Shown: in pieces, positions 13,813 through 52,411 of the stretch
How positions within the stretch are numbered: the first letter of the stretch is position 1
Layout of the letters: every line of letters starts with the position of its first letter
Virus record (IMG/VR): IMGVR_UViG_3300025073_000989
Reading direction: 5' to 3' (one strand)
DNA from: a virus
Lineage: Duplodnaviria; Caudoviricetes
Length of the DNA: 64,000 nt
Notes under the pieces: generated by a model
Databases searched by the model: none
Seen by the model: the letters and a program-made list of their open reading frames with translations, nothing else
What the model was told of the DNA's origin: nothing
Translations under genes and position numbers: made by a program

Positions 13813-13885
13813 GGAGATGTATTTCAAAGGGGAGAATGTTGGCCAGTTGGGCGTGAAGGTGTAAGTTCGAATCTTGCCATCTTTT
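13813..13885 (+). pseudogene. degenerate tRNA (pseudo-tRNA, anticodon undetermined)
   Basis: Acceptor GGAGATG/CATCTTT and T-arm gtaag-TTCGAAT-cttgc; D- and anticodon arms poorly paired; no CCA. Confidence 0.6.
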
Positions 13886-46866: not shown

Positions 46867-47853
46867 ATGGATTTGATAGGGCATGAAAACACTAAATTAC
46901 AAATAAATATAGCTTTTCTTTCTGCAAAAAAGAGAAATATGGCTATACCACATATGCTTTTTTCAGGTACAGCTGGTTGTGGTAAGACAAGCATGGCAAA
47001 AGAAATTGCAAAATTAGATAATTCAGATTTTTTGTCCATTTCGCCAGAAGCAATAAAAGATTTAAAGAGCACAAAAAAATTAATGGAAAATCTAAATCAT
47101 AGTGGCTATGATGCAAGCGGTAATAGAGTAGGAGCAATAAAACCTAGTATATTACTTCTAGATGAAATACATAAACTACCTCTAGCTGGTCAGGAAGCGC
47201 TTGGTATAGCTATGGAAAACTATATGCTAGAAACTGGTAGAGCTAACAAATTTTACTGGCTACCATATTTTACTTTAATTGGCGCAACAACAATGGCAGG
47301 AGAGCTAAGTAAACCGTTTTTAGACAGATTTAAAATGAGTTTTACTTTTGAGCCCTATTCAATTTCAGATTCGTTTAAAATAGTAAAAGCACATTGTTCT
47401 AGGCTCAGTATAGCCATAACATCTGAATCTGTTGCTACAATAGCAAAAAGAGGAAGAGGTATTCCTAGAATAATGGTTAAGTATCTAGAAATGATCCGAG
47501 ATTTTACTTTTGCTAAGAATAGCAAAGTCATAACACTAGAAACAACATTAGAAACGTTTAGGTCTTTAGGTATTGATGTTGAAGGTTTTAGTCTTGTAGA
47601 AATTAAAATTCTAAAAACATTATATGAAGAAGATAAACCGGTGGGTTTAGAAAACTTGGCAATAATAGTAGGAGAATCTGCAAAGACACTAAAAGAAACT
47701 ATTGAACCTTATTTGATCCAAAGGGGTTTTATACTAAGAAGTGGATCAGGCCGTCTTATAACACGGCTTGGAAAAGAATATATAGATAAACAAAATTATG
47801 TAAATACTAAAACCAATAAAATAAATATACCAGCAAACTATGTAAGACAATAG
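46867..47853 (+). CDS. ruvB: RuvB-like Holliday junction AAA+ ATPase
   Basis: GTAGCGKT, LLDEIH, FTLIGATT, DRF, RGIPR, EPYLIQRGFI.R..SGR. Confidence 0.92.
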   Translation: MDLIGHENTKLQINIAFLSAKKRNMAIPHMLFSGTAGCGKTSMAKEIAKLDNSDFLSISPEAIKDLKSTKKLMENLNHSGYDASGNRVGAIKPSILLLDEIHKLPLAGQEALGIAMENYMLETGRANKFYWLPYFTLIGATTMAGELSKPFLDRFKMSFTFEPYSISDSFKIVKAHCSRLSIAITSESVATIAKRGRGIPRIMVKYLEMIRDFTFAKNSKVITLETTLETFRSLGIDVEGFSLVEIKILKTLYEEDKPVGLENLAIIVGESAKTLKETIEPYLIQRGFILRSGSGRLITRLGKEYIDKQNYVNTKTNKINIPANYVRQ

Positions 47854-47854
47854 T

Positions 47855-48625
47855 ATGATAAATAACGAGTACCAAAGTGATAATAAAAAAGATTTTCCTA
47901 GACACTTACTAGGTAACTCAATTGAAGAAGCAGAAGAAAACTTTAATAAATTTTCTGAACTACTAAATAATATTGCTTACAGTTATTATTCTATAACTGG
48001 AATAGACAAAGGAGACTTATTTGCAGAAGCGGTGTTTGGATTGGCGCGAGCACTGCGGGATTTTGATGATAATAGAAGCAAGGATTTTGTTGTTTATGCT
48101 ATTTTTATAATAAAAGACGCTTTAAACGAGTACGTCAGGAATTATTATCAAATTTCAACACCATCATACCTTAGAAAAGCCGCAAATTTAGTAGAAAAAT
48201 TAAAAGCAATTTTTACGTCTAATAACATAGAAATAGATTGGAATAATTTAGATTATAGTTATATTGAAAACAGTTTACCAGACAGTCAGAGTATTCTCTG
48301 TAAGGAGCTATTAGCTAAATTAAATAATTATGCGGATAGAGCAAAAATAAAAGTTTCTGAGTTAATAACAAGAATACAGTTAATACCTAGGAGCTTTGAT
48401 TATGAACACAAGCACAACGAGATTGATCTTAATGAAAAAACAAATAACTCAATACTAGTAAAACAACTACTTGAGCAAATGTCTGTAGACGAGAAAAAAG
48501 TTGCAATTGGCATAATGCAGGATAAAACTTACCAAGAAATAGGAAAAACTTTAGGAAAATCTAATGCATGGGTATCAGATAAAATAAAAACTATGCAGAA
48601 AAAGTTCAAAAGAGACTGCTTGTAA
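47855..48625 (+). CDS. sigma70-family RNA polymerase sigma factor
   Basis: Region 2 DLFAEAVFGLARALRDFD...FVVYA; region 4 HTH TYQEIGKTLGKSNAWVS. Confidence 0.85.
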   Translation: MINNEYQSDNKKDFPRHLLGNSIEEAEENFNKFSELLNNIAYSYYSITGIDKGDLFAEAVFGLARALRDFDDNRSKDFVVYAIFIIKDALNEYVRNYYQISTPSYLRKAANLVEKLKAIFTSNNIEIDWNNLDYSYIENSLPDSQSILCKELLAKLNNYADRAKIKVSELITRIQLIPRSFDYEHKHNEIDLNEKTNNSILVKQLLEQMSVDEKKVAIGIMQDKTYQEIGKTLGKSNAWVSDKIKTMQKKFKRDCL

Positions 48626-51159: not shown

Positions 51160-51342
51160 ATGCCAATTTATGAGTACAAATGTGAAAGTTGTAATAACGT
51201 TTTTGAATGTAAATTTAGTATAAAAAGTGATTCAGCTACAACAATCTGCACAAAATGCAAAGGAATTGGAAAAAAAATACCGTCATTAGCTGCATTTCAT
51301 TTAAAGGGAAAAGGTTGGTATAAAGAACCACCAGCTAAATAG
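51160..51342 (+). CDS. FmdB-family zinc-ribbon protein
   Basis: MPIYEYKCESC...CTKC...F.LKGKGWY. Confidence 0.9.
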   Translation: MPIYEYKCESCNNVFECKFSIKSDSATTICTKCKGIGKKIPSLAAFHLKGKGWYKEPPAK

Positions 51343-51347
51343 TTATT

Positions 51348-51632
51348 TTAGCTAAAACTAACCACTTCTTCTTTTTTATTTAGAAAACCATAAAATACTG
51401 GGAAAAACCCCAAAAAAGAGAGAGCTATTAGGTATTCAACTCCTTTAATATGAGTATAAAAATCTGAAAAAGTATTAAAATCTCTAATAAGACCAATAGA
51501 CACTAGATATTGTCTTATAAACTCAGACATACTCCAGTCAACCACGGCCAATCCAGACAGGATTGATGTAGCTGCCCATATACCTGCGATACTTCCAACA
51601 AAAATAGAACTATTAGTAAGTAATTTCTTCAT
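51348..51632 (-). CDS. small membrane protein (C-terminal part HmcD-like)
   Basis: GSIAGIWAATS TM segment; DFYTHIKGVEYLI...F resembles HmcD-like peptides of sulfate reducers as recalled. Confidence 0.6.
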   Translation of the reverse strand: MKKLLTNSSIFVGSIAGIWAATSILSGLAVVDWSMSEFIRQYLVSIGLIRDFNTFSDFYTHIKGVEYLIALSFLGFFPVFYGFLNKKEEVVSFS

Positions 51633-51644
51633 TTCATTACCCCC

Positions 51645-51857
51645 TTACATTCCAGTAAAAGCTGTTATTAAATTTTTAGATATATTTTCTGACATTACTA
51701 AACCATTAATTAAACAAACAACTCCCCAAGCCCCAACAAGAGTAGACAGGGCCATAATAATTCTAATTCCAAATGTCGAGTTACCGACATCAAAAGTTAT
51801 ATTTTCTCGTTCTAAGGTAGAACTACAATTAATAACAGCTTTAGTAATTTCATACAT
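51645..51857 (-). CDS. small membrane protein (GxW family)
   Basis: STLVGAWGVVCLINGL...FTGM; ATG at 51857 after GGAGG. Confidence 0.65.
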   Translation of the reverse strand: MYEITKAVINCSSTLERENITFDVGNSTFGIRIIMALSTLVGAWGVVCLINGLVMSENISKNLITAFTGM

Positions 51858-51861
51858 GTTA

Positions 51862-52014
51862 TTAGCCTCCAATGAAATAAGAGATAAGCATTGATACGGC
51901 TGCCCAAATTCCAGCTAAAGCCGAGATTGCCATTATGGCACCAAAACAAACTTCCGTAACACCAGTTTCTTTTTTTTCTTCTAAAATAATATTTTCAGCA
52001 GTTGCAGTCTTCAT
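51862..52014 (-). CDS. small membrane protein (50 aa, GxW family)
   Basis: Read manually: MKTATAENIILEEKKETGVTEVCFGAIMAISALAGIWAAVSMLISYFIGG; RBS GGAGG. Confidence 0.7.
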   Translation of the reverse strand: MKTATAENIILEEKKETGVTEVCFGAIMAISALAGIWAAVSMLISYFIGG

Positions 52015-52054
52015 AAAGAGATCCTCCAATATTGATTAATCTTACTTAAATATA

Positions 52055-52070
52055 AGCAAAGAACGTGCCA
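52055..52070 (-). promoter_or_regulatory. sigma54 (-24/-12) promoter
   Basis: Minus strand TGGCACG-TTCT-TTGCT, an exact consensus match ~40 bp upstream of the 52014 ATG. Confidence 0.85.
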
Positions 52071-52154
52071 ACGTGAAATAAAAATATAATTACTAATATT
52101 TATTGATATATATATATCTATATACTAATTATAATATAAAATGTAAAAAATTAA

Positions 52155-52203
52155 ACTACATAAATGTAACTACATAAATGTAGTTTTACCACACAAATGT
52201 AGT
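52155..52203. promoter_or_regulatory. three palindromic repeats ACTACATAAATGTAGT, probable enhancer (UAS) sites
   Basis: Copies at 52155, 52169 and 52188, ~85-135 bp upstream of the -24 box, separated from it by an AT-rich tract. Confidence 0.65.
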
Positions 52204-52231: not shown

Positions 52232-52411
52232 ATGGAAAAGATTAAATATGTATGTTCAAAATGTAAATCAGAAAATATAGGCTGGGATGCTTGGGCTAAG
52301 TGGAACATAGAAAAACAAAAAGAAGAAATTAGAAATGTCTTTGACCAAGCATATCGTTTTAGTTGCGACGGGGAAACTAAACTAGAAAAGAAGGAAATAA
52401 ATCATGAATAA
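52232..52411 (+). CDS. small Zn-ribbon-like protein (59 aa)
   Basis: Read manually: MEKIKYVCSKCKSENIGWDAWAKWN... Confidence 0.55.
   Translation: MEKIKYVCSKCKSENIGWDAWAKWNIEKQKEEIRNVFDQAYRFSCDGETKLEKKEINHE

What the first reader, a model, noticed from the sequence alone, without database searches (positions are those of the whole stretch)
51348..52203. Complete sigma54 regulatory unit driving three small GxW membrane proteins on the opposite strand
Seen: an exact TGGCACG-N4-TTGC promoter, an AT-rich spacer and three ACTACATAAATGTAGT palindromes ~85-135 bp upstream. These drive three genes (50, 70 and 94 aa; the first is missed by the ORF track) sharing a (G/S)xxxG(I/A)W TM motif. Known: this geometry is the classic bEBP/IHF/sigma54 arrangement, which is rare in lytic phages. 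Recalled (unverified): similar peptides, including the HmcD-like DFYTHIKGVEY segment, occur in sulfate-reducing Desulfobulbales. Inference: a host-derived operon kept under host enhancer control, possibly tuning respiratory membrane complexes, and the best host clue in the window.
Basis: partly seen in the sequence, partly recalled or inferred. Interest (0 to 1): 0.7.

Follow-up and report, generated by a model that had tools for sequence, protein, structure and literature searches.

The report
Phage HmcD-like cassette under host sigma-54 control
An uncultured 269-kb phage carries three small membrane-protein genes copied from sulfate-reducer-type bacteria (Desulfobulbales/Desulfobacterales), together with the bacterial sigma-54 promoter and enhancer that switch them on, so the phage probably lets its host's own signalling circuit decide when these respiratory-complex subunits are made.

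Summary
An exact TGGCACG-N4-TTGC promoter lies at window 52056-52070 (minus strand). Three 16-nt palindromic repeats lie 85-133 bp upstream, and three small genes with strong ribosome-binding sites (50, 70 and 94 aa) lie downstream. It is the only exact match in the whole 268,764-bp phage genome (about 0.01 expected per window).

All three genes have same-order homologues (39-65% identity) in over 100 bacterial loci. Every named genome is a Desulfobacterota MAG or SAG, apart from one probably mis-binned contig. Nearly all of these bacterial operons have a sigma-54 promoter. Their enhancers are paired TGCAACA-N4-TGTTGCA palindromes 14 bp apart, and the phage repeats align with them in register.

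An NtrC-type enhancer-binding protein sits directly upstream in 8 of 8 loci of the two-gene form with enough flank. The phage encodes neither this activator nor RpoN. In bacteria the pair heads an operon of an HmcA-like cytochrome, HmcB and HmcC. The C-terminal half of the 94-aa protein is a true HmcD-domain homologue.

Best reading: a host-derived cassette that needs host sigma-54 and a host activator. A role in a respiratory complex is inferred, not shown. No transcription start-site data could be obtained. No IHF site was found.

The scan did not find this cassette on other DNA.

The parts
52188..52203 (-). Enhancer repeat 3, farthest from the promoter (ACCACA-N4-TGTAGT type)
   Evidence: A weight matrix built only from bacterial enhancer sites ranks the 18-mer covering this repeat 2nd of 268,747 positions in the phage genome. 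It is 15/18 identical to an element in the enhancer of loci L016 and L083.
52169..52184 (-). Enhancer repeat 2, a near-perfect 16-nt palindrome (7-nt arms, 2-nt centre; ACTACA-N4-TGTAGT)
   Evidence: It aligns in register with the bacterial double palindrome TGCAACA-N4-TGTTGCA (alignment A5).
52155..52170 (-). Enhancer repeat 1, nearest the promoter, 14 bp from repeat 2
   Evidence: Pairs of bacterial sites show the same 14-bp register.
52071..52154 (.). AT-rich spacer between enhancer and promoter, possibly a bending region
   Evidence: Intergenic stretch is 21.7% GC. No exact IHF consensus. Any bending role is inferred only.
52056..52070 (-). Sigma-54 -24/-12 promoter, an exact TGGCACG-N4-TTGC
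   Evidence: Equivalent promoters stand before the first gene in about 80 of 83 homologous bacterial operons with enough flank. The start site is predicted near 52045 and was not measured.
51862..52014 (-). Gene 1: 50-aa single-pass membrane protein (P0003)
   Evidence: GGAGG 8 nt before the ATG. Homologues of 51-59 aa occupy the same operon position in bacteria at 39-65% identity, with 10 invariant columns kept. No Pfam, NCBIfam or PHROG family.
51645..51857 (-). Gene 2: 70-aa single-pass membrane protein (P0002), a paralogue of gene 1
   Evidence: GGAGG 8 nt before the ATG. Bacterial homologues of 71-76 aa always lie just upstream of the HmcD-like gene. hhalign A2 against A3 gives 96% probability, E 3e-9.
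51348..51632 (-). Gene 3: 94-aa two-helix membrane protein (P0001) with an N-terminal transmembrane helix and a C-terminal HmcD domain
   Evidence: NCBIfam NF045712 HmcD covers residues 52-89 end to end, E 1.2e-4, 22 bits against a cut-off of 34. The precomputed Pfam hit PF28260 is weak. The family profile retrieves true HmcD proteins. 32 family-invariant columns are kept. The model has helices 2-29, 33-45 and 55-84 at pLDDT 66.

Best explanation
This is a host-derived three-gene cassette (a moron, or auxiliary gene set) in a 269-kb uncultured phage. It descends from a conserved trio of small membrane-protein genes of 59, 75 and 102 aa found in Desulfobulbales and Desulfobacterales. In those bacteria a copy of the 75/102-aa pair, without the 59-aa gene, stands at the head of a sigma-54-dependent operon. 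That operon encodes an Hmc-like periplasmic cytochrome c / HmcB / HmcC quinone-interacting complex. The last protein of the trio carries the HmcD domain. The phage kept the genes and also the cis-regulatory unit: an exact -24/-12 sigma-54 promoter and a compacted enhancer of three inverted repeats. The enhancer has the same architecture as the bacterial one, with an ACA-N4-TGT core and a 14-bp register. The phage encodes neither RpoN nor an enhancer-binding protein. Transcription should therefore need host sigma-54 RNA polymerase and a host NtrC-type response-regulator bEBP, the one encoded directly upstream of the bacterial operon. The cassette would then fire only when the host's two-component circuit for this respiratory module is active. 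The proteins would insert into the cytoplasmic membrane and join or replace the host's small subunits of the HmcBC-type module. That would sustain or redirect electron flow during infection. Shown: the sequence elements, the homology, the shared gene order, the conserved promoter and enhancer, and the lack of a phage activator. Inferred: actual sigma-54/bEBP dependence, which bEBP acts, any association with the Hmc-like complex, and any benefit to the phage.
For: Promoter: the exact match is unique in the window and in the genome. It is intergenic and about 42 nt before the first ATG. The other high-scoring sigma-54-like sites with an ORF nearby fall inside ORFs. Homology and gene order: P0003, P0002 and P0001 hit adjacent genes in the same order in 23 genome loci and 80 metagenome loci. 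The profile search found only 60 representative clusters among 1.84 billion proteins, including true HmcD. Conserved regulation: a sigma-54 pattern lies within 260 nt of the first gene in about 80 of 83 operons with enough flank. At least eight loci (11 counting those cut at a contig edge) have the same tight three-gene, one-promoter layout as the phage. Enhancer: the commonest inverted repeat upstream of 97 bacterial promoters is TGCAACA-N4-TGTTGCA, often as pairs 14 bp apart. A matrix built from these sites ranks a phage repeat 2nd in the genome. The phage repeats align in register with 16 invariant columns. Natural bacterial variants carry the phage-type CTACA half-site. Activator: an RR-PAS-Sigma54_activat-HTH_8 protein (602 aa) lies directly upstream in 8 of 8 such loci at 80-89% identity. 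In the phage the only PF00158 hit is a RuvB, there is no Sigma54_DBD, and tblastn with the bEBP gives E > 0.8. Function context: downstream bacterial genes score as HmcA-like cytochrome c, HmcB (414 bits, cut-off 420) and HmcC (363 bits). Long residence and selection: cassette GC is 32.8% against 34.3% for the genome. The P0001 branch is 1.95 against a median of 0.16, yet all family-invariant residues are kept. The same protein occurs on 24 contigs, up to 275 kb long.
Against: The phage half-site (ACTACA) matches the bacterial consensus (TGCAACA) at only 4 of 7 positions, so recognition by the same bEBP is not assured. The phage enhancer lies at -85 to -133, while the bacterial sites found lie about 200-350 bp upstream, the limit of the stretch scanned. 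There is no IHF consensus. The phage has its own sigma-70-type factor and, per an earlier scan note I did not check, its own RNA polymerase. It may shut host transcription down. The trio most like the phage's, the three-gene form, is not directly followed by hmcABC-like genes in bacteria but by an EB_dh-domain protein, a PhnD-like protein and a histidine kinase. HmcD itself has no known function and is described only as a 'hydrophobic peptide' (PMC10924467). Predictions of host regulator sites in phages have proved unreliable in the cyanophage case (PMC10976474).
Confidence: 0.72

Rival explanations
1. The proteins were put to a phage-specific membrane use, such as holin or antiholin-like timing, superinfection exclusion or collapse of the proton-motive force, rather than supporting the host respiratory complex. 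The sigma-54 unit would still drive them.
For: P0001 sits on a branch about 12 times longer than its bacterial orthologues, which fits a change of function. The phage carries only the small subunits and no redox partner. Small single-pass membrane proteins are typical of lysis and exclusion genes (general knowledge). One weak structural neighbour cluster carries a holin family on 14% of its members.
Against: All invariant residues of the three bacterial families are retained, including the whole DFYTHIKGxEY block, which argues for the same binding partners. No lysis genes are adjacent. There is no PHROG hit.
Confidence: 0.15
2. The small proteins modulate signalling by the neighbouring histidine kinases, as small membrane connector proteins do. 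The phage would then use them to manipulate the host two-component circuit rather than the respiratory complex itself.
For: In bacteria the trio most like the phage's lies between a GAF-PAS histidine kinase and an EB_dh / PhnD-like / HAMP-PAS histidine kinase block. The phage also carries a sensor-less hybrid histidine kinase elsewhere.
Against: The second bacterial pair is co-operonic with hmcA-like, hmcB and hmcC genes. True HmcD lies inside hmc operons (PMC10924467). No link between the phage kinase and the island kinases was found beyond the generic 23-33% identity.
Confidence: 0.08
3. The promoter and repeats are relics or serve another purpose. The cassette would be silent, or read from a phage promoter, and the palindromes would be operators for a phage regulator of the divergent plus-strand genes that start at 52232.
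For: The repeats end 29 nt before the plus-strand ORF at 52232. Weak sigma-70-like hexamers overlap the region. The phage encodes its own sigma factor.
Against: An exact 11-base consensus would decay quickly in a 33% GC genome if unselected, and only 0.01 is expected by chance. The palindrome core is not reused elsewhere in the 269 kb. Sigma-70-like hits are fewer than in shuffled sequence (5 against 9.1). The promoter and enhancer architecture matches the bacterial orthologous loci.
Confidence: 0.04
4. Assembly artefact: a bacterial fragment was stitched into a phage contig.
For: The genes and regulatory elements are bacterial in type.
Against: Cassette GC matches the phage (32.8% against 34.3%), while bacterial copies are 38-42%. 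The protein is only 51-64% identical to any bacterial copy. An independent Logan assembly (L005) shows the same phage neighbours. The protein occurs on 24 contigs, up to 275 kb long.
Confidence: 0.01

Closest known systems
HmcD (DVU_0533; NCBIfam NF045712, Pfam PF28260), the small hydrophobic subunit of the Desulfovibrio Hmc complex
   Same: Residues 53-89 of the 94-aa phage protein are 59% identical to a true HmcD. The shared features are the DF..HIKG.EY block, a transmembrane helix and an LNKK tail. Bacterial orthologues are co-operonic with HmcB- and HmcC-like genes.
   Different: The protein is twice as long, with an extra N-terminal transmembrane helix. It scores 22 bits, below the 34-bit equivalog cut-off. 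It is always paired with one or two further small membrane proteins that have no described family. The bacterial operon order is small genes, then cytochrome, HmcB and HmcC. No HmcE or HmcF genes were seen in the loci examined. In the phage no redox subunit is present.
Cyanophage auxiliary genes (pstS and others) controlled by the host PhoBR two-component system (PMC10976474 and works cited there)
   Same: A host-derived gene in a lytic-type phage keeps the binding site of a host response regulator, so the host's signalling state gates phage gene expression. The regulator is not phage-encoded.
   Different: Here the circuit is sigma-54 plus an AAA+ enhancer-binding response regulator acting from a distant enhancer, not a sigma-70 promoter with a Pho box. 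The host phylum and the cargo also differ. Nothing here has been tested experimentally.
Classical NtrC-type bEBP / sigma-54 units, for example glnAp2, or the Desulfovibrio vulgaris sigma-54 regulome that includes an electron-transport regulator (PMC4641369)
   Same: A -24 GG and -12 GC promoter with consensus spacing, multiple palindromic activator sites about 100 bp upstream and an AT-rich spacer. In the bacterial relatives the regulator gene is adjacent and the target is a periplasmic cytochrome membrane complex.
   Different: The unit is located in a phage genome that lacks the activator and the sigma factor. No IHF consensus is present.
Phage morons: self-contained promoter-gene-terminator insertions on the opposite strand
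   Same: A short block on the opposite strand in an otherwise one-directional genome, with its own promoter and cargo of host origin.
   Different: The promoter class is sigma-54 and enhancer-dependent, and the enhancer is conserved with that of the donor lineage.

Membership tests
Sigma-54-dependent promoter | -24 GG and -12 GC elements at consensus spacing (TGGCAC-N5-TTGC) | tested here: met
   Exact TGGCACG-N4-TTGC at 52056-52070 on the minus strand. It is unique in the 269-kb genome.
Sigma-54-dependent promoter | Intergenic position, co-oriented with and close to a downstream gene | tested here: met
   About 42 nt before the ATG at 52014. The other top-scoring sites with an ORF nearby lie inside ORFs.
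Sigma-54-dependent promoter | Upstream activator (bEBP) binding sites | tested here: inconclusive
   Three inverted repeats lie at -85 to -133 and share their architecture with bacterial enhancers. Binding was not tested. Half-site identity to the consensus is only 4 of 7.
Sigma-54-dependent promoter | Transcription starts 11-13 nt after the -12 GC and requires RpoN plus ATP hydrolysis by a bEBP | not testable with these tools
   No WATCARNNNNTTR in 52071-52154. Only AT-richness is present.
HmcD (NF045712 / PF28260) | Scores above the curated cut-off of the family model | tested here: not met
   22 bits against a cut-off of 34, although all 38 profile positions are matched. The precomputed Pfam hit is marked weak.
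HmcD (NF045712 / PF28260) | Homology to true members | tested here: met
   A profile of the phage-type family retrieves proteins that pass the HmcD cut-off at 47, 41 and 37 bits. BLASTP gives 59% identity, E 7e-15. Atlas neighbour clusters carry PF28260 on 46-59% of members.
HmcD (NF045712 / PF28260) | Encoded with hmcA, hmcB and hmcC (and E, F) | tested here: inconclusive
   Bacterial orthologues of one paralogue set precede an HmcA-like cytochrome, HmcB and HmcC. No HmcE or HmcF was seen. The phage copy has no such neighbours.
Auxiliary gene under host two-component control (cyanophage PhoBR type) | Gene of host origin | tested here: met
   Close homologues were found only in Desulfobacterota genomes, and none in phage collections.
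Auxiliary gene under host two-component control (cyanophage PhoBR type) | Regulator absent from the phage, with its site present upstream | tested here: met
   No bEBP or RpoN in the 269 kb. Enhancer-like repeats are present.
Auxiliary gene under host two-component control (cyanophage PhoBR type) | Expression responds to the host signal during infection | not testable with these tools
   The phage and its host are both uncultured, and no RNA data were available.

The most novel reading that the evidence does not exclude
The phage uses a complete host sensory chain (histidine kinase, then response-regulator bEBP, then sigma-54) to read the host's respiratory state. It may also force that chain on with its own sensor-less hybrid histidine kinase (G000:107365-108573). 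The result would be a burst of three small subunits that are the limiting, fast-turnover or assembly-controlling parts of Hmc-type quinone-interacting complexes. This would be a respiratory counterpart of cyanophage psbA. It would also give HmcD and the two unnamed small families their first function.
Probability: 0.12. Interest if true: 0.8.

Novelty: new variant of a known kind. Interest (0 to 1): 0.62.

Why it matters
Four points make this worth following up.

1. It is a clean, testable case of a phage keeping a bacterial enhancer-dependent sigma-54 unit, with promoter and activator sites, but without the activator. I found no description of this in the paper searches. It extends the idea that host regulators gate phage auxiliary genes beyond cyanophage Pho and NtcA boxes.

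2. It gives a specific host prediction for an uncultured 269-kb phage. The host should be a Desulfobulbales- or Desulfobacterales-type bacterium that carries the Hmc-like island and its NtrC-type regulator.

3. It draws attention to an undescribed and highly conserved trio of small membrane proteins, two of them with no family model. They head Hmc-like operons in sediment Desulfobacterota. Selection in a phage suggests that they matter for the function or assembly of the complex.

4. It offers short DNA and protein reagents for reporter, gel-shift and pull-down assays.

Tried and rejected
- Pfam and PHROGs searches of the three proteins found nothing useful.
- blastn and tblastn against cultured-phage records found no match for the region, for a large neighbouring gene or for P0001.
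- IMG/VR scans with the family alignment and with two flanking genes (radical SAM, ATP-grasp) found no relatives. I could therefore not find a related phage lacking the cassette to define insertion boundaries.
- The PF00158 hit in the phage turned out to be RuvB, not a bEBP.
- GTDB taxonomy of the host genomes through the genome search handles is not disclosed for loci from other tools. Taxon names come from record titles only.
- A weight matrix of the bacterial family's promoters ranks the phage promoter only 7th in the genome, because that family prefers ATGC at -12. The higher hits with an ORF nearby lie inside ORFs, so this test was uninformative.
- The IHF consensus search found no site in the spacer.
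- The search of solved structures found no relative. The AlphaFold model has low confidence (pLDDT 66) and shows only three helices, so I ran no fold search.
- The phage hybrid kinase has only generic similarity to the island and host kinases.
- A literature search for HmcD function turned up only its description as a hydrophobic peptide of the Hmc complex.

Full report
**Setting.** The window is the reverse strand of G000:C1:11381-75380. G000 is a 268,764-bp IMG/VR virus record that CheckV rates complete. Almost every gene in the window lies on the plus strand, with seven tRNAs and about 33% GC. The finding concerns a short block on the opposite strand. It sits between a zinc-ribbon gene (51160-51342) and a run of plus-strand genes that includes a radical-SAM enzyme and an RNA ligase.

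**Observation.** Read on the minus strand, the region has four parts.
- Three 16-nt repeats lie at 52203-52155. The middle one is a near-perfect palindrome (7-nt arms around a 2-nt centre), and start-to-start spacings are 14 and 19 nt.
- An 84-bp spacer follows. It is very AT-rich, with the intergenic stretch at 21.7% GC.
- An exact TGGCACG-N4-TTGC lies at 52070-52056.
- Three ORFs of 50, 70 and 94 aa follow, each behind a GGAGG or GGGGG.

The promoter match is the only exact one in the window, with 0.01 expected. It is also the only one in the whole phage genome. The repeat core C-N-ACA-N4-TGT-N-G occurs three times in 269 kb, twice here. One detail is not: the spacer holds no IHF consensus.

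**What the genes are.** None of the three proteins passes a Pfam, NCBIfam or PHROG threshold. Residues 52-89 of the 94-aa protein do match the whole 38-position NCBIfam HmcD model, at 22 bits against a cut-off of 34. The collection's precomputed Pfam hit is PF28260, DVU_0533 / sulf_resp_HmcD, marked weak.

A profile of the protein and two 63-64% identical relatives was run against 1.84 billion representative proteins. It found only 60 clusters. These include short proteins that pass the HmcD cut-off at 47, 41 and 37 bits. One of them is 59% identical to the phage protein over 37 residues. The C-terminal half is therefore a genuine HmcD-domain homologue. The protein is not an HmcD equivalog, because it is twice as long and has an extra N-terminal transmembrane helix. 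The model shows helices 2-29, 33-45 and 55-84 at pLDDT 66.

**Relatives and gene order.**
- A scan of one genome per prokaryotic species returned 23 loci. All are Desulfobacterota MAGs or SAGs titled Desulfobulbaceae, Desulfobulbales, Desulfobacterales, Thermodesulfobacteriota or 'Deltaproteobacteria'. The one exception is a 'Promethearchaeota' contig that is near-identical to a Desulfobacterales contig and is probably mis-binned.
- A metagenome scan found 198 more relatives, none above 64% identity.
- All three phage proteins hit adjacent genes in the same order (59 aa, 75 aa, 102 aa) in these loci.
- The phage copies are 39-65% identical to the bacterial ones. The bacterial copies are far more alike among themselves.
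- On a tree the phage protein has a branch of 1.95, against a median of 0.16. Even so, it keeps every invariant column of each family: 10, 11 and 32 columns.
- The 50- and 70-aa families are paralogous (hhalign 96%). A link to the N-terminal helix of the 94-aa family is only suggestive (36%).

**The bacterial island.** Gene order across these genomes is highly conserved.
- On one strand lie an NrfD-like protein, a cytochrome c7 and an FeS protein.
- Diverging from them is a 602-aa response-regulator bEBP (REC-PAS-Sigma54_activat-HTH_8).
- An enhancer and a sigma-54 promoter follow.
- The first operon holds the 75-aa gene, the 102-aa HmcD-like gene, a small multihaem cytochrome whose best hit is the HmcA C-terminus, HmcB (414 bits, cut-off 420) and HmcC (363 bits).
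- A GAF-PAS histidine kinase comes next.
- A second set follows: the 59-aa gene, then the 75- and 102-aa genes, then an EB_dh-domain protein, a PhnD-like protein and a HAMP-PAS kinase.

The bEBP is present directly upstream in 8 of 8 loci of the first type with enough flank, at 80-89% identity. The phage cassette resembles the second set. At least eight loci have exactly the phage's tight three-gene layout behind one promoter.

**Conserved regulation.** A sigma-54 pattern (TGG[CT]A[CT]-N5-N[TG]GC) lies within 260 nt of the first gene in about 80 of 83 operons that have enough flank. In total there were 146 pattern hits in 1.03 Mb of loci.

Upstream of 97 distinct promoters the dominant inverted repeat is TGCAACA-N4-TGTTGCA. 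It is commonly found as two sites 14 bp apart, about 200-350 bp upstream, the limit of the stretch I scanned. The phage repeats are ACTACA-N4-TGTAGT. They share the ACA-N4-TGT core and the 14-bp register.
- A weight matrix built only from the bacterial sites ranks a phage repeat 2nd of 268,747 genome positions.
- MAFFT aligns the phage double palindrome in register with bacterial ones, with 16 invariant columns.
- Bacterial variants with the phage-type CTACA half-site exist. One element in L016 and L083 is 15/18 identical to the phage's outer repeat.

I chose this weight-matrix test after I had seen the resemblance. Identity to the consensus half-site is only 4 of 7. I therefore rate the enhancer as homologous in architecture, but I do not regard recognition by the same activator as shown.

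**What the phage lacks.** There is no Sigma54_DBD hit. The only PF00158 hit is a RuvB helicase. A tblastn search with the island bEBP finds nothing below E 0.8. If the promoter works as it reads, it depends on host RpoN and a host bEBP.

**Mechanism.**
- Shown: the elements, the homology, the shared gene order, the conserved cis-regulation and the absence of a phage activator.
- Inferred: the host kinase-bEBP circuit fires the phage promoter, and the three proteins enter the membrane and join or replace the small subunits of the host's HmcBC-type quinone-interacting module, sustaining or rerouting electron flow during infection.

HmcD is known only as a hydrophobic peptide of the Hmc complex (PMC10924467). 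The HmcBC-type FeS/NrfD module is a widespread quinone-interacting unit (PMC6303296).

The rivals are:
- re-use as a phage membrane effector;
- modulation of the adjacent kinases;
- a silent relic, or an operator for the divergent plus-strand genes;
- an assembly artefact.

The artefact is effectively excluded. Cassette GC equals phage GC, and an independent assembly shows the same neighbours.

**Comparison and novelty.** The closest concept is the control of cyanophage auxiliary genes by host PhoBR. The same paper warns that predicted regulator sites in phages can mislead (PMC10976474). The closest protein family is HmcD.

What is new here is the combination:
- a sigma-54 promoter with its enhancer inside a phage that has no activator;
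- an enhancer demonstrably related to that of the donor lineage;
- a cargo of small Hmc-type subunits.

The paper searches gave no precedent. No cultured or IMG/VR phage carries a relative. I class it as a new variant of a known kind.

The scan's sequence look-up found this cassette only in this genome. I did not check that note.

**Limits.** Expression, the start site and protein-protein contacts therefore remain untested. Host identity rests on gene origin and regulatory logic, not on a direct link.

Noticed in passing
G000:C1:107365-108573 (outside the window; locus L109:2366-3571): The phage encodes a 402-aa hybrid histidine kinase (HATPase_c plus a receiver domain) with almost no sensor region. 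It is only 23-33% identical to kinases of the candidate host genomes. It could feed a host phosphorelay, possibly the one that ends at the bEBP, but nothing links them so far.
   Followed up: partly
L018:3140-9207 and L013:1-10285 (Desulfobulbaceae MAG CAMYKS010000004), and the equivalent loci L006-L027: A conserved 'Hmc-like island' in Desulfobulbales and Desulfobacterales holds two paralogous sets of small membrane-protein genes under sigma-54 promoters, an adjacent NtrC-type bEBP, two histidine kinases and an operon of HmcA-like cytochrome, HmcB and HmcC. The 59-aa and 75-aa families have no Pfam or NCBIfam model.
   Followed up: partly
L011 (JAIWHJ010000068, titled Promethearchaeota MAG): This contig is near-identical to the Desulfobacterales contig L007 across the island, so it is probably a mis-binned bacterial contig in an archaeal MAG.
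   Followed up: no
window 46867-48625: A complete RuvB (N, lid and C domains) sits next to a 256-aa protein with only a Sigma70_r2 hit. The weak PF00158 hit on RuvB is generic AAA+ similarity, not a bEBP.
   Followed up: partly
window 13813-13885: A weak tRNA-like match by Rfam (33.5 bits) lies within the tRNA cluster. ARAGORN does not call it, so it may be a degenerate or unusual eighth tRNA.
   Followed up: no
window 51343-51360: The stop codons of the convergent zinc-ribbon gene and the 94-aa gene are 5 nt apart and lie in a 12-nt AT-only palindrome (TTTTAGCTAAAA). This may be a weak bidirectional terminator. The scan found no canonical terminator after the cassette, and its only hit (51413-51398) lies inside the coding sequence.
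   Followed up: no
window 32001-34000: A GC-rich island (47% against about 33%) holds overlapping ORFs on both strands. Earlier notes of the scan describe it as an integron-type cassette array with rtcB.
   Followed up: no
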